Of a DNA stretch of 10,047 bases, positions 1 through 10,047 are shown piece by piece. Below the pieces are notes generated by a model. It ran no database searches. It was given only the letters and a program-made list of their open reading frames with translations, and was not told the origin of the DNA. Source of the stretch: a virus (lineage: Duplodnaviria > Heunggongvirae > Uroviricota > Caudoviricetes); the IMG/VR virus record IMGVR_UViG_2706794662_000010, one strand, 5' to 3'. The stretch's first letter is position 1, and every line of letters starts with the position of its first letter. The translations under genes and the position numbers were made by a program.

Positions 1-311
1 GCACCGCCGTTGCCGCGAATAGACTCGCCACCCCAAGAAATATTAATGGGGTTCCCTTTGACGGGACGCAGGACATAAACATCACTTCTGGTATAACACA
101 GCAGGATGCGGATTCCCGATATATCCAGGATATCAGGCTGGGAGCAGAGAACAGGCAGGTAATGTACGGTGGGGCATATTACTCTGCGTACGGTAATGTT
201 ATGGCAGGCCTGCAGATTGACAGTAAAGTTGATGCTTCAAACGATTTTATAGCATTCAGACCCCTGCAAAAATTAGTCGGAGGTACATGGATTACGGTAT
301 CTCAGTTATAA
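1..311 (+). CDS. Tail fibre protein, C-terminal (variable) part; 5' end lies upstream of the window
   Basis: Open frame 3..311 (stop TAA 309-311) with no start in window. Translation ends ...YGGAYYSAYGNVMAGLQIDSKVDASNDFIAFRPLQKLVGGTWITVSQL. It sits directly upstream of a tail-fibre assembly gene, and its C-terminal motif (RPLQ.L..G.W.T) recurs in the inverted cassette at 916-1058. Confidence 0.6.
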   Translation, partial: TAVAANRLATPRNINGVPFDGTQDINITSGITQQDADSRYIQDIRLGAENRQVMYGGAYYSAYGNVMAGLQIDSKVDASNDFIAFRPLQKLVGGTWITVSQL

Positions 312-362
312 ATAGTCAGTAAATAATATATTTTAAAACAGATTTATTTCCAGGAGGATTTT

Positions 363-884
363 ATGGAACTAAAAAATATAACCCGTTATTATCCTGAAAA
401 TATGCCATATGGTAATAATGTTCAGTATTTCCAGAGTGAAGATGGTAAGGATTTCTACGAATCCCTGCCATTATTCACCAAAAAATATAAACTTTGCATA
501 ACACCTGACAGCGGCGTTATCTGCTCAATATCACAGGACGCCTCGGCGCTGTATCCTGCGGGGTTTTCTGTGGTTGAGGTCGATGAACTCCCTGAAGGCA
601 CGGATATTTCAGGAAACTGGAAGTTTGATAATGGCATAATCTCCCGTATTCCGGTTAACTACGCAAGAAAACTGGAAGCAATGCGCCAGTCATATCTTAA
701 TCAGGCATATGAAAAAATTAATGACTGGAGAACGGAGCTACAACTGGGCACCATCAGCGATGAAGACAGAGCAGCACTTACCCAATGGATGGCATACATC
801 AGTCAGGTGAAGAAAATGGAACTACCCGCCATTAAAACAGAAGCTGAATTTAACGCCATTAAATGGCCTGAGCAGCCACAGTAA
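363..884 (+). CDS. tfa: Tail fibre assembly chaperone (Tfa / Mu U-like)
   Basis: 173-aa ORF with AGGAGG RBS at 351-356, 6 nt before the ATG. C-terminal region (...DEDRAALTQWMAYISQVKKMELPAIKTEAEFNAIKWPEQPQ) resembles the conserved C-terminus of phage tail-fibre assembly proteins, and it lies immediately 3' of a fibre gene. Confidence 0.75.
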   Translation: MELKNITRYYPENMPYGNNVQYFQSEDGKDFYESLPLFTKKYKLCITPDSGVICSISQDASALYPAGFSVVEVDELPEGTDISGNWKFDNGIISRIPVNYARKLEAMRQSYLNQAYEKINDWRTELQLGTISDEDRAALTQWMAYISQVKKMELPAIKTEAEFNAIKWPEQPQ

Positions 885-887
885 TAA

Positions 888-907
888 AGAAGGCCGGAAG
901 GCCTTCT
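888..907. terminator. Perfect hairpin AGAAGGCC-GGAA-GGCCTTCT between convergent genes; likely bidirectional terminator
   Basis: 8-bp GC-rich stem with 4-nt loop, 3 nt after the tfa stop and 9 nt before the stop of the minus-strand fibre cassette; flanked by A/T-rich sequence on both sides. Confidence 0.5.
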
Positions 908-915
908 GAATATCA

Positions 916-1058
916 TTATATACTTGCAGCCGTCACCCATGCTCCATTTAACAGATACTGCAACGGCCGGTAATACACGCCGCCGACGTTATCTGCCGTA
1001 TTCTTACCGACATCCTGTACTTTAATTCCGGTAAGAACATTGCCGCCCCCCAGATTCA
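916..1058 (-). CDS. Alternative tail-fibre C-terminal cassette (S'-like), inverted relative to the upstream fibre gene; 5' part runs into the N-run
   Basis: Minus-strand frame ending at stop 916-918 encodes ...NLGGGNVLTGIKVQDVGKNTADNVGGVYYRPLQYLLNGAWVTAASI. This shares the terminal motif YRPLQyLlnGaWvT with the plus-strand fibre end (FRPLQKLVGGTWIT). Maximum size is about 118 codons before the invertase start region. Confidence 0.55.
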
Positions 1059-1326
1059 NNNNNNNNNNNNNNNNNNNNNNNNNNNNNNNNNNNNNNNNNN
1101 NNNNNNNNNNNNNNNNNNNNNNNNNNNNNNNNNNNNNNNNNNNNNNNNNNNNNNNNNNNNNNNNNNNNNNNNNNNNNNNNNNNNNNNNNNNNNNNNNNNN
1201 NNNNNNNNNNNNNNNNNNNNNNNNNNNNNNNNNNNNNNNNNNNNNNNNNNNNNNNNNNNNNNNNNNNNNNNNNNNNNNNNNNNNNNNNNNNNNNNNNNNN
1301 NNNNNNNNNNNNNNNNNNNNNNNNNN
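1059..1326. other. Run of 268 N (masked or unsequenced bases)
   Basis: Directly visible in the sequence. It covers the 5' part of the inverted fibre cassette, the expected invertase promoter and crossover site, and the invertase N-terminus. Confidence 1.
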
Positions 1327-1850
1327 TACAAAGAAATGCGCTGGAATGTGCAGGATGTGAGCTGTTTTTCGAAGACAGAATAAGCGGTAAGACAAGGGAG
1401 CGTCCCGGACTTAAACGCGCATTAAAGCGACTCCGGCCAGGGGATACCCTGCTGGTCTGGAAACTGGATCGCCTTGGACGCAGTATGCAGCACCTTGTCC
1501 TTTTAACAGAAGAACTCCGGCAACGCGGCGTTAACTTCCGCAGCATTACGGACAATATTGATACATCCACTCCCATGGGACGTTTCTTTTTCCATATAAT
1601 GGGCGCGCTGGCGGAAATGGAGCGGGAACTCATTATTGAACGTACACGCGCGGGTCTTGCTGCTGCCCGTGCTCAGGGGCGTCATGGCGGCAGACCTCAG
1701 AAACTGACAGAGAAAGAGCGGGAGCAAATCGCCCGTTTGCTGGCTAATGGCGAGTCCCGTAAACAAATCGCACTGATATTTGATATTGGCCTTTCCACCC
1801 TTTATCGTTATTTTCCTGCCTCACCAGCTCCGTCACCAAAAGTACCGTGA
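1327..1850 (+). CDS. Serine DNA invertase, Gin/Pin/Cin/Hin family (visible C-terminal ~173 codons; start masked, estimated near 1278)
   Basis: Frame beginning at 1329 reads QRNALECAGCELFFEDRISGKTRERPGLKRALKRLRPGDTLLVWKLDRLGRSMQHLVLLTEELRQRGVNFRSITDNIDTSTPMGRFFFHIMGALAEMERELIIERTRAGLAAARAQGRHGGRPQKLTEKEREQIARLLANGESRKQIALIFDIGLSTLYRYF..., stop 1848-1850. Shows the resolvase/invertase core (DRLGRS, MGRFFFH, GALAEMEREL) and a C-terminal HTH; near-colinear with Gin/Pin as recalled. Confidence 0.9.
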
Positions 1851-1935: not shown

Positions 1936-3990
1936 ATGTCAGACTCCAAGTGGAAAATGCTCTCCGCCATGCCCGGAGAGTTTTCAGTCAAGGTTGCCGG
2001 TGGCACGGTGGCATTTATTGAAAGCCCTTTCCGCCCTTCGGGTAATAAAGGGGGGATCACCTTCGCAGACTGCGTGATCCGCTTCAGCACGAAAGAGCCA
2101 TTATGGGTAATGCCGGTATCCGGTAATCCCAGTGCAGAAATCACCAGTTCAGGCGTGACTGGCATCATTCCAATCACATCTGACGTGGCCGGAACGCTCA
2201 CGCCCTCCGACTGGAATGCACCGGATAACGCCGGGCCTTCCGGTAGCACGAATGGCAGCAGTTCAGAGCCGGAATATTACTTTGTTGTCATTCTCGCGGG
2301 TCAGTCAAATGGCATGGCCTACGGCGAGGGGCTGCCGTTACCGGATTCGTTTGACCGCCCGGACCCACGCATTAAGCAACTGGCACGCCGCAGTACGGTA
2401 ACGCCCAACGGTACGTCGTGTACATACAACGACATCATTCCGGCAGACCACTGCCTGCATGATGTTCAGGATATGAGCGGGATAAACCACCCGAAAGCTG
2501 ATCTGGCAAAAGGCCAGTACGGGACTGTCGGTCAGGGGTTGCATATTGCCAAAAAACTGCTTCCCTATATCCCACAGAATGCCGGGATACTTCTGGTGCC
2601 CTGTTGTCGTGGCGGGTCAGCATTCACCACTGGAGCCGACGGCTCATTCAGTGAGGCCAGCGGTGCTTCCGCTGATTCTTCACGCTGGGGGGCCGGTAAA
2701 CCTCTGTATCAGGACCTGGTAAGCCGCACCAAAGTCGCGCTGGCGAAAAACCCGAAAAACAAACTTCTGGCTGTGGTCTGGATGCAGGGAGAGGCAGACC
2801 TTGCCTCAGGAAGCCAGCAGCATAATAGTTTATTCACGGCCATGGTTCAGCAGTTCAGAACTGACCTGGCTCCGCTTGCTGCGCAGTGCGTGAGTGGAAA
2901 TGCCACCACGGTGCCGTGGATTTGCGGTGATACCACGTATTACTGGAAAAACGCTGGCACCGATAAATATGAGGCAGTATACGGTGGCTACAAAGGCAAG
3001 GAAGCACAGAAAATTTTCTTTGTACCGTTCCTGACGGATGAGAATGGACAGAGCACGCCAACGAATGCTCCGGCGGAAGACCCGGATATTGTGGCTGTCG
3101 GGTATTACGGTGCAGCATCCCGAACCCAGGGCAGTTTTGTTTCGACACAGCGTGACAGCCATTTCAGCTCATGGGCACGCAGGGGCGTCATTTCAGACCG
3201 TCTGGCCTCAGCTATTATGCTCCATGCAGGGCGCACGGCTGAACTGATGCGCGGGCAGACCGTGACACCACCGGATGAGAAGCCGTCACCTGATACACCA
3301 TCAAAACCGTCCACGCCACCCGCAGACACCACGACGATGAGTACGCTATTTGCTTACCGGGCATCTGAGTCTGAAGGACGGTTGACACCACAGGGTTGGG
3401 CTGCCGGAGGTGGCAAGGCTCAAATCGTGGATGATGCCGGAGCCAGCGGGGGTAAGGCAATGAAACTGACCAAGGAAACAGGAAGAGCCCCCTGGTACCT
3501 TGAGCATGATGCTGGTAATGGTGCGGACCTGCTGGGTAAAGGTGGTCTTGTCAGTTGTCGTTTTAAACTCGATGGCGCGCTTACGGCTAATCAGTACGCA
3601 CTGGCGCTGTACTGGCCGGTTTCTGCCCTGCCGCAAGGGGTTACTCTGGAAGGAAATGCCGGTCATAACCTGCTGGCATCGTTCTACGTACAGAGCGATG
3701 CCACAGACCTTAACGTGATGTATCACAAAGGAAACACGGCGCAGAACACGAAGCTGGGGTCATTCGGCGCATTTAATAACGAATGGCATACGCTGGGCTT
3801 CCGTTTTGCCGGTAACAACAGTATTGAGGTGACGCCGGTCATTGATGGTAAGGACGGGACACCATTCATGCTGTCGCAGTCTCCGGTCGGCACGTTTACG
3901 GCAGACAAGTTGCGCGTGACCGATATCACTAAAAATGCGACTTACCCGGTACTGATTGACAGTATCGTGGTGGAAGTGAATAACGCGTAA
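1936..3990 (+). CDS. SASA/SGNH-family carbohydrate O-acetylesterase with Pro/Thr linker and C-terminal lectin-like domain (prophage NanS-p-like sialate O-acetylesterase candidate)
   Basis: 684-aa uninterrupted ORF. Contains the GQSN motif (codons 2299-2310, candidate catalytic Ser at 2305-2307) and a downstream WMQGEAD block typical of the SASA/DUF303 esterase family. A TPPDEKPSPDTPSKPSTPPADTTT linker lies at about 3262-3335, followed by a ~215-aa beta-rich domain. No signal peptide. Weak RBS; ATG at 1957 is an alternative start. Confidence 0.65.
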   Translation: MSDSKWKMLSAMPGEFSVKVAGGTVAFIESPFRPSGNKGGITFADCVIRFSTKEPLWVMPVSGNPSAEITSSGVTGIIPITSDVAGTLTPSDWNAPDNAGPSGSTNGSSSEPEYYFVVILAGQSNGMAYGEGLPLPDSFDRPDPRIKQLARRSTVTPNGTSCTYNDIIPADHCLHDVQDMSGINHPKADLAKGQYGTVGQGLHIAKKLLPYIPQNAGILLVPCCRGGSAFTTGADGSFSEASGASADSSRWGAGKPLYQDLVSRTKVALAKNPKNKLLAVVWMQGEADLASGSQQHNSLFTAMVQQFRTDLAPLAAQCVSGNATTVPWICGDTTYYWKNAGTDKYEAVYGGYKGKEAQKIFFVPFLTDENGQSTPTNAPAEDPDIVAVGYYGAASRTQGSFVSTQRDSHFSSWARRGVISDRLASAIMLHAGRTAELMRGQTVTPPDEKPSPDTPSKPSTPPADTTTMSTLFAYRASESEGRLTPQGWAAGGGKAQIVDDAGASGGKAMKLTKETGRAPWYLEHDAGNGADLLGKGGLVSCRFKLDGALTANQYALALYWPVSALPQGVTLEGNAGHNLLASFYVQSDATDLNVMYHKGNTAQNTKLGSFGAFNNEWHTLGFRFAGNNSIEVTPVIDGKDGTPFMLSQSPVGTFTADKLRVTDITKNATYPVLIDSIVVEVNNA

Positions 3991-6327: not shown

Positions 6328-7046
6328 AAAATCGCCGCGCTATACGCTGCCAGACCCAGACGGGCATTTTCCCGGTCATCCCATGCGCCCTGAAGGTTGG
6401 CCCGGAAAGAGGAGGTTTTACCGCGGCGCTGGCTCCGACTCTGGTACCACTGCCATTTTTTATCCGCCTCATCAAATGCCTTCTGCGCACTGGCGAGCAT
6501 ATCCGCTGAGGATTCCGGACGACCGATATCCAGAATGGCATCCCACATCGATTTGAATGCCTTCCCTGTTTTATCCGCCCAGGTCTCCAGTGTTCCCATG
6601 TTTTCTTTCAGGCGACGGGTCTGCTCATCAAAGCCTTTCGTGGCGATATCGTTCGCCGCCTGCAATGCCCCGGCCTCGTCTCCGGAACGCTGCAGCTGTG
6701 CAACATACGCAATCTGCTCTGCCGTCACGTTACGGAACTGGCGCGCCATCGCCATCAGTCCCGACGTCGGGTCAGTGGTCAGCTTCCCGAAGGCTTCAGC
6801 GACTTTATCCACCTCCACACCGGATGCAGACGCAAAACGCGCGACACTCTGGTTGATGGCATCAAACTGTTCACCACCACGCACACCGGCATTCACCAGG
6901 GCTGCCAGTGACTCTCTCGCCTGGTTAAACGTCAGCCCTGCTGCCTGCCCGGCTCTTGAGAGAGTCAGCATACGATCGGCAGTCAGTCCGGACTGATTAC
7001 CGGAAAGAACCAGGGTTTTATTAAACGCTGAAAGCGTGGAATCTCC

Positions 7047-7319
7047 NNNNNNNNNNNNNNNNNNNNNNNNNNNNNNNNNNNNNNNNNNNNNNNNNNNNNN
7101 NNNNNNNNNNNNNNNNNNNNNNNNNNNNNNNNNNNNNNNNNNNNNNNNNNNNNNNNNNNNNNNNNNNNNNNNNNNNNNNNNNNNNNNNNNNNNNNNNNNN
7201 NNNNNNNNNNNNNNNNNNNNNNNNNNNNNNNNNNNNNNNNNNNNNNNNNNNNNNNNNNNNNNNNNNNNNNNNNNNNNNNNNNNNNNNNNNNNNNNNNNNN
7301 NNNNNNNNNNNNNNNNNNN
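7047..7319. other. Run of 273 N (masked or unsequenced bases)
   Basis: Directly visible; hides the T stop and the H start. Confidence 1.
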
Positions 7320-7717
7320 TCATCCACCATGACATCCGCCACATCCGCAGACGATAAAATATCGCGCCCTCCGTCCCCACCGAACCGGACGCCTCCGGCA
7401 AGTCCTGCCGCTTTCTGCATCAGCATTTTGTCCTCATCCGGCCTCTCCACCTGCTCTTCCTCATGCCGGGGGACAAGCAGACTGAAATCAGAGGGATGCA
7501 TATCCGGATCGCAAAAAAACAGGCTGAGTACAGCGTACGTCAGCCCGGAAAAATGCATATCCAGCTGGGTATCCTGAAAATAATGCGTGCGGTAAAAACG
7601 GCGCCAGTCGGCATATTCGGTGGATGTCATCCCGGCAAGCATGGCGCGCCAGTCGGGTCTCCCCATCTCACGCGCCAGTCTGAGGGCAAAGTTCAGCTCG
7701 CCGTCGAAGACTTTCCC
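7320..7717 (-). CDS. T: Tail assembly chaperone T region, expressed as G-T fusion by -1 frameshift; 3' end masked
   Basis: Frame -1 relative to G, from the slippery site downward: GKVFDGELNFALRLAREMGRPDWRAMLAGMTSTEYADWRRFYRTHYFQDTQLDMHFSGLTYAVLSLFFCDPDMHPSDF...MLMQKAAGLAGGVRFG..., lambda gpT-like as recalled. The track ORF tail at 6983-7046 is an off-frame reading of H, not T. Confidence 0.8.
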
Positions 7718-8124
7718 GCAGAAAAATCATCATCAGTCAGCGTGTTATTTTTCGCCACTTCAGTAATATCAGTATCCGGACGAACAGCTTCGATCATCCC
7801 GGACAGGCACAACACCACGTCTTCCGCCCGGGCAATGGCATCGGCAGGCCAGGTGGTGAGCACTTCCTGCTCTATCTTCATCACGGCCTCATTCATTGAC
7901 GGTGACTGCGTTTTCTGTGGATGGTTATGCCACAGGGACATCGCCACCAGAAACGCGCCGGTTCTGACGAGATCTTCCACGCTTACCTGCAGGTTGCCGC
8001 TGGATTCTGCCTGTTCTGCACGCCGTTTCAGGAGGGCAAGATGCTCGATACGCTGCAGCGCAGACAATTCGGAAAGCGTGACAGACACACCGTTATATTC
8101 AAATTGTTCTGTTTTCAGAAACAT
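7693..8124 (-). CDS. G: Tail assembly chaperone G
   Basis: 143-aa ORF MFLKTEQFEYNGVSVTLSELSALQRIEHLALLKRRAEQAES...AMSLWHNHPQKTQ..., near-colinear with lambda gpG as recalled; sits between V and T. Confidence 0.9.
   Translation of the reverse strand: MFLKTEQFEYNGVSVTLSELSALQRIEHLALLKRRAEQAESSGNLQVSVEDLVRTGAFLVAMSLWHNHPQKTQSPSMNEAVMKIEQEVLTTWPADAIARAEDVVLCLSGMIEAVRPDTDITEVAKNNTLTDDDFSAGKSSTAS
7711..7717 (-). promoter_or_regulatory. Programmed -1 ribosomal frameshift slippery heptamer G GGA AAG (G-T fusion)
   Basis: Minus-strand GGGAAAG, in-frame as G|GGA|AAG in the G frame, 16-22 nt upstream of the G stop (7693-7695). Same motif and position as the lambda G-T frameshift site. Confidence 0.75.
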
Positions 8125-8137
8125 GTATTACCTCCGT

Positions 8138-8890
8138 TTACCCTGCAGCGCCCGCTTCAGTAACGGTGACTTCAGCCACTGCGGCGAACTGACCATTTCC
8201 GCTCACCACAGGGATCTGCACCTTACCTGTCGCCACGCCGTTTACCGTAATTGTCATATCTTTCACACTAATGGTGGCTTTCGACGGATCGGCGGAAACC
8301 GCTCTGAACGTCTTGTCGGTTGCACTTTCCGGCTCAAAAGAAACCGTCAGGGTGGTTGTTTTCCCTTTTGCCACCGTACCGGATGTCGGCGTCACCTTAA
8401 TCGCACTGACCGGCGTAATTTTGCTGCGTTCTTCCGCTACAGAAGGTTTACCCACGTTAGTGACTTTCACCGTGCGGGTGATCACTTCTTTCGCCGTCAC
8501 GGCCTTACCGATACTGCTGACCCAGCCACGAAACACATCCACCGTGCCATTCGGAAAACGGATTTTATAGGCCCGGACATCGCCGCTTTCAAACCAGCCT
8601 ATAAGCCCTTTCTGGCCTTCCTCTCCCGGTTTCCAGGCCAGCGTAAAACTGGTATCACCTGCAGATTTCTGCCCCTGCCCGGTCGCGCTCCAGTCCGCGT
8701 CTTCATCATCCAGGTAGTTATCATCATAGGATTCAGCCGTCATCTCGCCCGGCGTCAGATCCTTCACCTTAGCCAGTCGCTGCCAGTCATCGTCTGACAA
8801 CGGGTTTGCATAAGCATCAGCCTTGCCGTTGTAAACCCACAGAGTGGTACCGGCACCTTTTACCGGCTCCAGGGGATTTGGTGTTGCCAT
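8138..8890 (-). CDS. V: Major tail tube protein V with C-terminal Ig-like domain
   Basis: 250-aa ORF ...[58 protein letters not shown]...[42 protein letters not shown]..., lambda gpV-like as recalled. Confidence 0.92.
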
Positions 8891-8897
8891 ATCGTCC

Positions 8898-9293
8898 TCA
8901 CATCTCGTATGTAATGGAATAAGTCAGATCCGCAGAGCTCCATAACGCCATATCGTCATCACGACGATACTCATAGCCCTGCGTAACCATCGTGGTAATC
9001 AGTCCTGCCAGTGCAGGGATCGCAGTCATCGCCGGATAAATCCGGCTTTCCATCCACTGATCGAGCTCCGAATCAGGTACCTGTGCCGGTAAAAACACCT
9101 CAATATGCAGTGTGGCCCGCCAGGTATCTGCATCCAGCTCTTCACCGGTATACTCTGCATCCGTCAGATAAACCGCGATCGCAGGAAAATCCTCTTCGTC
9201 AAAAACAACGGGGCGACCATCAAACAGCGTCGCCCCGTGTTCATGCTGCTCGAGTGCATCCAGCACTGCGGCACGAATGTCAGTGTGTTTCAT
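8898..9293 (-). CDS. U: Tail terminator protein U
   Basis: 131-aa [57 protein letters not shown]...[13 protein letters not shown], lambda gpU-like; 4-nt start/stop overlap with Z. Confidence 0.92.
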
Positions 9294-9865
9294 CGTTTTA
9301 TCGCAATCCTCAGTTGTTGTTTCAGCGCGTATGCCAGTTCTTTAGGCAGGCGTTCACGCCGGATACGGTCAACATTCTCATCAAATGCCTGTTTCAGTGG
9401 GGCCGCCATCGGGATTTTCACCACCTGAATGGGAAGGCGATTACGCTTTTTCCTTCCCTTGTCGTCATTGCCCTCCTCATATCTGGCCTGGGGAAGACGT
9501 TGCATAACATGCCAGCGCCCATTATTTAATCGCTGGATAAATGCCCGCTGATAACGATGCTGACCGGCTTTGAGTATGCTGTTCGGACGACGCCCCAGCA
9601 TTCTGATCCCCAGCTTAATCACAGGGAGATCACCGCGGTTAACGATAATTCTGGCATTCGGATTTCTGACCGTCGCCCGTTTCAGTCTGGACCGTTCCTT
9701 TACCAGTTTCCGTCTCACCCTGGTTTCCCGGGCAACCTGTGACGAAGACTGATTAATCGCCGTTGTGGCCACGCGGTTAATGGTCATTGCAGAAGCAGCC
9801 GGAATGGCGTTTTTACGAACCCGGTTCAGATTGTCAATCGCCTGATCAAGCCCTTTTATCGCCAT
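9290..9865 (-). CDS. Z: Tail completion protein Z
   Basis: 191-aa ORF MAIKGLDQAIDNLNRV...RETRVRRKLVKERSRLKRATV...GRWHVMQRL...VVKIPMAAPL...[25 protein letters not shown], lambda gpZ-like. Confidence 0.92.
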   Translation of the reverse strand: MAIKGLDQAIDNLNRVRKNAIPAASAMTINRVATTAINQSSSQVARETRVRRKLVKERSRLKRATVRNPNARIIVNRGDLPVIKLGIRMLGRRPNSILKAGQHRYQRAFIQRLNNGRWHVMQRLPQARYEEGNDDKGRKKRNRLPIQVVKIPMAAPLKQAFDENVDRIRRERLPKELAYALKQQLRIAIKR

Positions 9866-9879
9866 AATTCACCCTGCGT

Positions 9880-10047
9880 TTATCGTCGCCGGTTAACTGC
9901 GGGTGGTTGCCCACGGTTGAGCCAGAGATAACAGCTGCCCCCGTCATCCGGAGATGTCAGCGCCAGTGATATAAGACGGTAATTCGCCATTTGGATTGTC
10001 CGCTCCACCCAACATGTTGTTTCCTTAAGGTTCTCACACCAGAAAGG
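9880..10047 (-). CDS. FII: Head-tail joining protein FII, C-terminal 55 codons (5' end beyond window)
   Basis: Minus-strand frame ending at stop (complement of 9880-9882) reads ...CWVERTIQMANYRLISLALTSPDDGGSCYLWLNRGQPPAVNRRR. The terminal SPDDGGSC.LWL.RG.PPAVNRRR matches the gpFII C-terminus as recalled; upstream similarity is weaker, with a possible short insertion. Confidence 0.6.
   Translation of the reverse strand, partial: PFWCENLKETTCWVERTIQMANYRLISLALTSPDDGGSCYLWLNRGQPPAVNRRR

What the first reader, a model, noticed from the sequence alone, without database searches (positions are those of the whole stretch)
1..1850. G-segment-like tail-fibre switching locus: two opposed fibre C-terminal cassettes next to a Gin/Pin-family invertase
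The plus-strand fibre end (3-311) and the minus-strand cassette (916-1058 and beyond) encode different C-terminal domains that share a terminal motif (FRPLQKLVGGTWITV versus YRPLQYLLNGAWVTA). They are arranged head-to-head around a tfa gene and are followed by a serine invertase. This is the architecture of Mu G, P1 C and e14 P invertible segments, where inversion swaps the receptor-binding tip and so the host range. Each variable cassette is only about 100-120 codons.
Basis: partly seen in the sequence, partly recalled or inferred. Interest (0 to 1): 0.5.

Follow-up and report, generated by a model that had tools for sequence, protein, structure and literature searches.

The report
Mini invertible tail-fibre switch, Mu-like prophage
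This is the host-range switch of a Mu-like prophage of E. coli, a 1.3 kb DNA segment that a Gin-type enzyme flips to swap the tip of the tail fibre; it is a well-known kind of system in a compact form that carries one fibre chaperone gene instead of two.

Summary
Window 1-1850 is the right-hand part of a G-segment-type invertible locus of an Sp18-like Mu-like prophage. It holds the end of the fibre gene (3-311), one tail-fibre-assembly gene (363-884), a silent opposed fibre cassette (916-1058 and on into the mask) and a Gin-type serine invertase (1327-1850).

The crossover sites are not visible in the window. In E. coli genomes 100% identical to the visible DNA, a 26-bp gix-like site lies 38-63 bp upstream of window base 1. 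Its inverted partner lies inside the masked run. Both keep the TC core of Mu gix.

Both orientations occur in public complete genomes: 4 as in the window, 14 flipped. The flipped form is an exact inversion, with 0 mismatches in 1760 nt. It gives an intact 293-aa fibre built from the minus-strand cassette.

The fibre, chaperone and invertase match the solved Mu S, U and Gin proteins.

The differences from Mu are the size (1.3 kb against 3.1 kb), a fibre lacking about 240 central residues, and a single tfa that flips with the segment. How tfa is expressed in the flipped state is unresolved.

This is a known kind of system and of modest interest.

The parts
3..311 (+). 3' part of the expressed variable cassette of the tail fibre gene (codons 195-296 of a 296-aa Mu S homologue, tip type T1), stop at 309-311. 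The gene start, the constant part and the left gix-like site lie upstream of the window; the site would be at -62 to -37.
   Evidence: 100% match to L001 9003-9311. PDB 5yvq_A, Mu tail fibre S: 7e-51, with the tip aligned to Mu S 435-502.
312..362 (+). AT-rich non-coding spacer upstream of tfa, with the ribosome-binding site AGGAGG. It is a candidate location for a tfa promoter, but this is not shown.
   Evidence: Sequence. A spacer of 51-120 nt is present in every lineage of this clade, against 2 nt between S and U in Mu. Only weak promoter-like matches were found.
363..884 (+). The single tail-fibre-assembly (chaperone) gene of the segment, 173 aa, a homologue of Mu U.
   Evidence: Pfam Caudo_TAP 4.8e-19. 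PDB 5yvq_B 4e-16. It is the only tfa between the crossover sites in all loci of this clade. dN/dS is 0.11-0.23.
888..907 (.). GC-rich hairpin (AGAAGGCC-TTCC-GGCCTTCT) between the convergent tfa and the silent cassette; probably a transcription stop for both directions.
   Evidence: Terminator-like hit at L001 9888-9907. The same hairpin is found in L034.
916..1058 (-). 3' part of the silent alternative fibre cassette (tip type T2, 116 codons in all), stop at 916-918. It continues into the masked run.
   Evidence: Translation. It forms the C-terminus of the intact 293-aa fibre in flipped genomes. PDB 9cuy_c short tail fibre 1e-10, and weak matches to the Mu S and S' tips.
1059..1326 (.). Masked run of 268 N. 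In identical relatives it corresponds to 336 nt: the 5' two thirds of the silent cassette, the right gix-like site (TTCCCGTAAACCGAGGTTTTCAGGAA), a 65-nt leader, and gin codons 1-16 including Ser9.
   Evidence: L001 10059-10394.
1327..1850 (+). Gin-type serine DNA invertase, codons 17-190 of 190, stop at 1848-1850. It carries the catalytic-domain motif KLDRLGRS, the wild-type Met114 and a C-terminal helix-turn-helix.
   Evidence: Pfam Resolvase 1.6e-51 plus HTH_7 4.9e-15. PDB 4m6f and 3uj3, Mu Gin: 3e-88 over residues 1-184. The roles of Ser9 and Met114 are from PMC3575834.

Best explanation
Window 1-1850 is most of a miniature G segment of an Sp18-like Mu-like prophage.

The segment is about 1317 bp and is bounded by two inverted 26-bp gix-like sites. 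The left site sits in the fibre gene at the codons for DNVGLRE, just upstream of the window. The right site sits 65 bp upstream of the invertase gene, inside the mask.

The adjacent Gin-type serine recombinase pairs the two sites, cuts at the central TC dinucleotide and rotates the segment by 180 degrees. Fis bound to an enhancer in the 5' end of the invertase gene probably helps. After inversion, the constant 177 N-terminal codons of the fibre gene are joined to the other cassette.

In the orientation seen in the window, the phage would make a 296-aa fibre with tip T1. In the flipped orientation it would make a 293-aa fibre with tip T2. The unused cassette has no start codon and is preceded by an in-frame stop, so it stays silent. 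A lysogen population would thus release particles with two receptor specificities.

What is shown: the sites, the exact inversion between public genomes, the two intact fibre genes, and the homology to Mu S, U and Gin. What is inferred: the catalysis, the Fis dependence and the change of host range.

Unlike Mu, the segment has one chaperone gene, which flips with the segment. I infer, with a probability of about 0.55, that this one Tfa serves both tips. It would be transcribed independently of orientation, from a promoter inside the segment upstream of tfa.
For: **Sites.** The inverted repeat in L001 has arms of 86 nt at 90% complementarity, followed by a second 50-nt pair. The 26-bp sites have 4 and 5 mismatches to Mu gix and the same TC core. 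They sit at the same place in the fibre protein as in Mu, and at a similar distance from gin.

**Inversion.** FORC_069 equals NCCP 13983 with an exact inversion: 0 mismatches in 1760 nt, provided the cut lies in a 20-nt interval that starts at the TC core. Among the 18 complete genomes at 99% identity or more, 4 have the window orientation and 14 are flipped. NCCP 13983, FORC_029 and FORC_069 have chromosomes of nearly equal length and differ in orientation.

**Fibres.** The two fibres are identical over residues 1-184 and differ in the tip.

**Homology.** The proteins match Mu S, U and Gin.

**Clade.** Every locus of this clade in which both sites were found has a 1.3-1.4 kb segment with one tfa. 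Both orientations occur, including two prophage copies in opposite states in one genome, L045 and L046. Silent cassettes are intact open reading frames in every such locus except the two decayed copies L005 and L018.

**Shared Tfa.** tfa is intact with dN/dS 0.11-0.23 in 'locked' deletion variants, where it is permanently convergent with the fibre gene. A 51-120 nt spacer precedes tfa in all lineages, against 2 nt in Mu.
Against: - Neither crossover site can be read in the window itself. One is upstream of base 1 and one is masked.
- No experiment or read-level data show inversion within one culture.
- The crossover interval (20 nt) is also compatible with a homologous exchange inside the repeat.
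- The test for a Fis enhancer was inconclusive.
- No convincing promoter for tfa was found. Expression of the chaperone in the flipped state is therefore unexplained.
- The low dN/dS in locked variants could partly reflect alleles imported by recombination.
Confidence: 0.88

Rival explanations
1. The switch toggles between a fibre made with its chaperone and a fibre made without it. In the window orientation tfa is co-transcribed with the fibre gene. In the flipped orientation tfa is antisense and silent. Tip T2 is then either made without Tfa, or misfolds and gives non-infective particles. Because Mu Tfa stays on the virion, the presence or absence of Tfa would itself change receptor recognition.
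For: There is one tfa, and it is always on the strand of one cassette class (T1, T4, T5, T6) and never behind T2 or T3. No promoter was found for tfa. A hairpin separates tfa from the T2 cassette. Mu Tfa stays bound to the fibre tip in the virion (PMC9608196).
Against: The flipped state is the commoner one in assemblies. 'Locked' variants that express T2 or T3 keep an intact tfa under purifying selection. T2 belongs to the same tip family as the Tfa-dependent Mu S and S'.
Confidence: 0.15
2. The two orientations arise by general homologous recombination between the 86-149 nt inverted repeats of the two cassettes, and not by the invertase, which would be a passive neighbour.
For: The repeats are long enough for RecA-dependent exchange. 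The crossover could only be mapped to 20 nt in one lineage, and not at all in L045/L046, where the arms are identical over 135 nt.
Against: The mapped interval starts exactly at the gix core and covers only about a quarter of the 86-nt arm. The 26-bp sites are conserved with Mu, although the flanking coding sequence is only about 50% identical at protein level. gin is intact and 74-100% identical to Mu Gin or L001 Gin in all loci with two sites except decayed copies. Variants without gin also lack the second cassette.
Confidence: 0.04
3. The locus is a decaying remnant of a Mu-type G segment that lost U' and much of S, with no present function.
For: It is smaller than Mu G and lacks U'. Some copies are clearly decayed: L005 has a frameshifted gin and truncated cassettes, and L018 a split gin.
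Against: The same compact design is kept in lineages whose tfa proteins are only 61% identical and whose tips are of six types, with intact expressed and silent cassettes. A Pantoea prophage has a comparable 1.57 kb segment. The window copy is 100% identical to copies found in both orientations.
Confidence: 0.04

Closest known systems
Invertible G segment of phage Mu with Gin and its gix sites (also D108, SfMu and Mu-type E. coli prophages such as FDAARGOS_1059)
   Same: - The gene order is the same: baseplate genes, fibre S, invertible segment, gin, then com and mom.
- The crossover site lies at the same place in the fibre protein.
- The 26-bp sites match in 21-22 of 26 positions and share the TC core.
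- Gin aligns over residues 1-184 at 3e-88, about 74% identical by tblastn.
- The constant part of the fibre is about 47-50% identical, and tfa is homologous to U.

   Different: - The segment is 1.3 kb, not 3.06 kb.
- The fibre has 296 or 293 aa, not 504, and lacks roughly Mu S residues 192-434.
- There is one tfa instead of the convergent pair U and U'.
- A 51-nt spacer precedes tfa, against 2 nt in Mu.
- Three extra genes (DUF6645/SASA, DUF1378, DUF826) lie between gin and com.

Sp18-type Mu-like prophages of E. coli O157:H7 and Mu-like insertions in Stx-converting phages (LC727881, LC727895)
   Same: These belong to the same clade. They have the same single-tfa mini segment, gin 78% identical, and a fibre 76% identical overall with the constant part 98% identical. 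They are also found inserted in the tape-measure gene of a lambdoid prophage.
   Different: The tip pair differs (T3/T4, not T1/T2), tfa is only 61% identical, and the insertion point differs. In the papers I could search, the invertible segment of this prophage type is not described.
Other tail-fibre inversion systems: P1 Cin with the C segment, e14 Pin with the P segment, P2-like prophage switches, and carotovoricin Er with the Ein invertase
   Same: In each, a small serine invertase next to a fibre gene swaps C-terminal cassettes by inversion between short inverted sites. Coexisting orientations have been measured in E. coli cultures (PMC4272514). Tailocin fibre inversion is cited in PMC13195805. 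A 1739-bp inversion of two tail genes around a single yfdK gene has been reported in an O157 prophage (PMC8190617). From my own knowledge, not checked here, yfdK is tfa-like; if so, that is a precedent for one chaperone gene between two cassettes.
   Different: The phage backbones and fibre families differ. P1 and e14 carry two tfa genes (my own knowledge, not tested here).

Membership tests
Gin/Hin/Pin/Cin DNA invertases (small serine recombinases) | N-terminal resolvase-type catalytic domain with the nucleophilic Ser9, and a C-terminal helix-turn-helix | tested here: met
   Pfam Resolvase 1.6e-51 and HTH_7 4.9e-15. The protein aligns to Mu Gin 1-184 at 3e-88, with Ser9 in MLIGYIRVSTNDQ. In the window only codons 17-190 are visible. 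Ser9 is read from genomes 100% identical in the visible part.
Gin/Hin/Pin/Cin DNA invertases (small serine recombinases) | Two inverted 26-bp crossover sites with an identical 2-bp core flanking the segment | tested here: met
   L001 8938-8963 and 10255-10280, core TC in both, 4 and 5 mismatches to Mu gix. Neither site is visible in the window: the left is upstream of base 1 and the right is masked.
Gin/Hin/Pin/Cin DNA invertases (small serine recombinases) | Recombinational enhancer with two Fis sites in the 5' part of the invertase gene | tested here: inconclusive
   Candidate Fis-like sites lie at gin nt 94-108 and 140-154, at the same positions as candidates in Mu. L004 lacks clean matches. 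Synonymous-site conservation is only mildly raised over nt 1-105. Met114, the residue whose change makes Gin Fis-independent, is wild type.
Gin/Hin/Pin/Cin DNA invertases (small serine recombinases) | Both orientations of the segment occur | tested here: met
   4 complete genomes are in the window orientation and 14 are flipped, all at 99% identity or more. The inversion is exact. Both states are also seen in IMG/VR contigs. Coexistence within one culture was not tested.
Mu G-segment-type fibre switch | A constant N-terminal fibre part outside the segment, joined to either of two C-terminal cassettes inside it | tested here: met
   Alignment A1: the two fibres are identical over residues 1-184, the junction is at DNVGLRETVN, and the tips diverge. 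The flipped gene is annotated as an intact 293-aa CDS.
Mu G-segment-type fibre switch | Each cassette is followed by its own assembly gene (S-U and S'-U') | tested here: not met
   There is only one tfa between the sites in L001 and in all loci of this clade. Mu-type loci have two.
Mu G-segment-type fibre switch | The unused cassette has no promoter or start of its own | tested here: met
   Read on the minus strand of the L001 sequence, an in-frame TAA lies just outside the right site and there is no ATG, GTG or TTG before the site. The translation starts after that stop. No promoter-like match points into the cassette from the gin side.
Mu G-segment-type fibre switch | The two orientations give different host ranges | not testable with these tools
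   This needs phage locked in each orientation and adsorption or plating tests.

The most novel reading that the evidence does not exclude
In this clade the inversion flips the only chaperone gene together with the cassettes, so the switch would change two things at once: the fibre tip, and whether Tfa is made. One class of tips (T2 and T3, with GGVYYRP) is never followed by tfa. These tips would be made without Tfa, and the virions would lack the Tfa cap that in Mu stays on the fibre. The alternative is that tfa has become an orientation-independent gene with its own late promoter, a solution not described for G-type segments.
Probability: 0.2. Interest if true: 0.45.

Novelty: new member of a known kind. 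Interest (0 to 1): 0.25.

Why it matters
The locus confirms that Sp18-like Mu-like prophages of E. coli, including pathogenic lineages, carry a working-looking host-range switch. It also shows that closely related genome assemblies differ only by the state of this switch. This is useful to know when small inversions are scored as variation in outbreak genomics.

The compact single-chaperone design raises one concrete, testable question: how does one Tfa serve two alternative fibre tips when its gene is inverted with them? The mechanism itself has been textbook knowledge since the 1980s, so the general interest is modest.

Tried and rejected
- **Source contig.** I searched for it with the prophage/flank junction as an exact pattern. 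There was no match in genome contigs or viral contigs, so the bases upstream of the window could not be read from the source itself.
- **Scan of representative genomes with the fibre N-terminus.** It gave only one locus, in Pantoea.
- **A 68-nt deletion in the window genome** was considered to explain 268 N against 336 nt. I rejected it because the second mask is also shorter than its relative (273 against 470 nt).
- **Fis enhancer.** Tested through synonymous-site conservation and Fis-like patterns. The result was inconclusive.
- **tfa promoter.** Consensus scans gave nothing above chance. A comparison with the Mu mom late promoter gave no usable motif.
- **Crossover mapping in further lineages.** It failed. 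In L045/L046 the repeat arms are identical over 135 nt, and the other pairs were too diverged.
- **Contigs ending at the left site.** I considered these as evidence of mixed orientation. I rejected this because any inverted repeat longer than the assembler's word size breaks short-read assemblies.
- **PGAP 'hypothetical proteins'.** The two annotated at L001 9916-10098 and 10136-10333 are probably artefacts of the silent cassette. The 65-aa one (10136-10333) has no Pfam hit; the 60-aa one was not scanned.
- **Nguyen et al. 2001 on carotovoricin** could not be read.
Full report
**What the window holds**

Window 1-2000 matches complete E. coli chromosomes at 99.9-100% identity outside the masked run. 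In strain NCCP 13983 (locus L001; window base 1 = L001 9001) the region lies at the right end of a Mu-like prophage. The gene order there is:
- tail sheath, tube, tape measure and baseplate genes;
- a 296-aa fibre gene (L001 8421-9311);
- a tail-fibre-assembly gene (9363-9884);
- a short minus-strand ORF;
- a recombinase (10346-10918);
- a DUF6645 gene, DUF1378 and DUF826;
- com and mom.

The window therefore starts inside the fibre gene, at codon 195.

The proteins were tested against solved structures.
- The fibre matches Mu tail fibre S (5yvq_A, 7e-51). Residues 1-198 align with Mu S 1-191 and the tip 229-294 aligns with Mu S 435-502. About 240 central residues of Mu S are therefore absent.
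- The tfa product matches Mu U (5yvq_B, 4e-16).
- The recombinase matches Mu Gin over residues 1-184 (4m6f and 3uj3, about 3e-88).
- Pfam agrees for tfa and the recombinase.

**Crossover sites**

In L001 an inverted repeat of 86 nt (90% complementary), followed by a second pair of 50 nt, links the fibre gene (8943-9091) with the region just upstream of the recombinase (10127-10275).

At the outer end of each arm lies a 26-bp site:
- left: TTATCGATAACG TC GGTTTACGGGAA;
- right, read on the other strand: TTCCTGAAAACC TC GGTTTACGGGAA.

The Mu sites, read from the Mu genome record, are TTATCCAAAACC TC GGTTTACAGGAA on both sides. The prophage sites differ from the Mu site at 4 and 5 positions and keep the central TC.

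The left site encodes DNVGLRE. This is the same place in the protein as FIQNLGLQE in Mu S. The right site ends 65 nt before the recombinase start, against 54 nt in Mu.

In window terms, the left site lies 38-63 nt upstream of base 1 and the right site lies within the N run.

**The masks**

The 268 N at 1059-1326 correspond to 336 nt in L001. The 273 N at 7047-7319 correspond to 470 nt in a relative (L003) whose best match to window 6345-9954 is 99.5% identical. The masks therefore do not keep length, and the 68-nt difference is not evidence of a deletion.

The first mask hides four things: the 5' two thirds of the minus-strand cassette, the right site, the leader, and gin codons 1-16 with Ser9.

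**Both orientations exist**

Eighteen complete genomes match at 99% identity or more. In four of them window 1-1058 and 1327-2000 lie on the same strand, as in the window. In fourteen they lie on opposite strands and 177 nt apart (coordinates compared).

In FORC_069 (L002) the flipped state carries an intact 293-aa fibre gene made of the constant part plus the minus-strand cassette. The plus-strand cassette of the window is there an N-terminally truncated pseudogene next to the recombinase.

The two fibres are identical over residues 1-184 and diverge after about residue 203.

Building the flipped sequence from L001 reproduces FORC_069 with 0 mismatches in 1760 nt, provided the cut lies between L001 8949 and 8968. 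That is a 20-nt interval which begins at the TC core.

NCCP 13983, FORC_029 and FORC_069 have chromosomes of 5,189,943, 5,189,944 and 5,189,917 bp. The first differs from the other two in orientation. This points to recent switching. It is not proof of switching within one culture.

**How this differs from Mu**

I scanned IMG/VR with an alignment of the constant fibre part and then ran a script that locates sites, tfa and gin. Two designs emerged.
- Mu-type loci have about 3.0 kb between the sites and two convergent tfa genes. These include Mu itself and the E. coli prophage whose inversion was confirmed with long reads by Milman et al. (PMC9881135).
- The clade of the window has 1.3-1.4 kb between the sites and a single tfa. 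Its constant fibre part is 64-100% identical to the query.

Both orientations occur in this clade, including two prophage copies in opposite states in one genome (L045 and L046). A Pantoea prophage has a comparable 1.57 kb segment with a 27-nt inverted repeat, one tfa and a gin 60% identical.

Six tip types occur in the clade, in different pairs. The window has T1 and T2; the O157 Sp18-like prophages have T3 and T4. tfa always follows T1, T4, T5 or T6, and never T2 or T3.

**The chaperone problem**

In the flipped state tfa is antisense to the late tail operon, and a hairpin separates it from the expressed cassette.

Seven 'locked' variants have lost the second cassette, the right site and gin through what appears to be one shared deletion. 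They express T2 or T3 with tfa permanently convergent. Their tfa genes are intact, with dN/dS 0.11-0.23 at dS 0.11-0.43. This argues that Tfa is still used in that arrangement.

In every lineage tfa is preceded by a non-coding spacer of 51-120 nt, against 2 nt in Mu.

I therefore favour an orientation-independent tfa that serves both tips. However, no convincing promoter was found. The alternative, in which the flipped state lacks Tfa, remains open.

T2 is related to the tip of a solved short tail fibre (9cuy_c, 1e-10) and weakly to the Mu S and S' tips. It is therefore of the same tip family as the Tfa-dependent fibres. According to PMC9608196, Mu Tfa binds the distal fibre and stays in the virion.

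**Other tests**

- The silent cassette is preceded by an in-frame TAA outside the site and has no start codon before the site (read from the sequence; translation).
- The test for a Fis enhancer was inconclusive. Met114 of Gin is wild type, which in Mu Gin goes with dependence on Fis (PMC3575834).
- Decayed copies exist. In L005 gin is frameshifted and the cassettes are truncated; in L018 gin is split. The visible part of the window copy is intact.

**Literature**

G-segment inversion and its effect on host range are classical (summarised in PMC4406740). Coexisting orientations of prophage fibre switches have been measured in E. coli (PMC4272514). A 1739-bp inversion of two tail genes around a single yfdK gene was seen in an O157 outbreak (PMC8190617). 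From my own knowledge, yfdK is tfa-like. Tailocin fibre inversion is cited in PMC13195805.

I found no paper that describes the segment of Sp18-like prophages. My search covers open-access text only.

**Verdict**

The locus is a new member of a well-known kind. Its compact single-chaperone design is the only point of some interest.

Noticed in passing
window 1059-1326 and 7047-7319: The N runs do not keep the length of what they hide. 268 N stand for 336 nt, and 273 N stand for 470 nt, in near-identical E. coli genomes. ORFs listed through the masks are artefacts, and coordinates after a mask are shifted.
   Followed up: yes
window about 6344/6345: The Mu-like prophage ends here. From 6345 on, the window carries lambdoid tail genes on the minus strand: tape measure, T, G, major tail protein, U and Z. 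The tape-measure gene is cut at about codon 375 of 857, so the Mu-like phage transposed into a lambdoid prophage. O157:H7 Z1815 and two Stx-converting phages carry similar insertions at other points.
   Followed up: partly
window 1936-3990 (+): A 684-aa protein with an SGNH/SASA sialate-O-acetylesterase-like domain (residues 117-312) and a C-terminal DUF6645 domain. It lies between gin and com/mom, where Mu has no gene. It is followed by DUF1378 and DUF826 genes. It may be a cargo or surface-modifying gene.
   Followed up: no
L010-L013, L026, L027, L034 (IMG/VR): 'Locked' relatives in which one deletion removed the second cassette, the right site and gin. The fibre gene and an intact tfa are left convergent, with a constant 305 nt between tfa and the DUF6645 gene.
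   Followed up: partly
L045 and L046 (IMGVR_UViG_2617271340): Two copies of the Sp18-like prophage in one genome carry the segment in opposite orientations. Their inverted repeat arms are identical over 135 nt.
   Followed up: partly
L041, L042 and L044, upstream of tfa: The 120-nt spacer between the expressed cassette and tfa holds a fossil of a further fibre C-terminus (YPLQVFINGSWRTAGSA*). This suggests that cassettes were replaced by insertion in front of older ones.
   Followed up: no
L016, L020, L031, L035-L040, L043 (IMG/VR): About ten contigs of this clade end at, or within about 150 nt of, the left crossover site. This is expected for short-read assemblies at an inverted repeat, so it is not by itself evidence of mixed orientation.
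   Followed up: no
L001 9916-10098 (-) and 10136-10333 (+): RefSeq annotates two small 'hypothetical proteins' here. The first is an internal ATG fragment of the silent cassette. The second runs antisense across the cassette and the right site. Both are probably annotation artefacts.
   Followed up: partly
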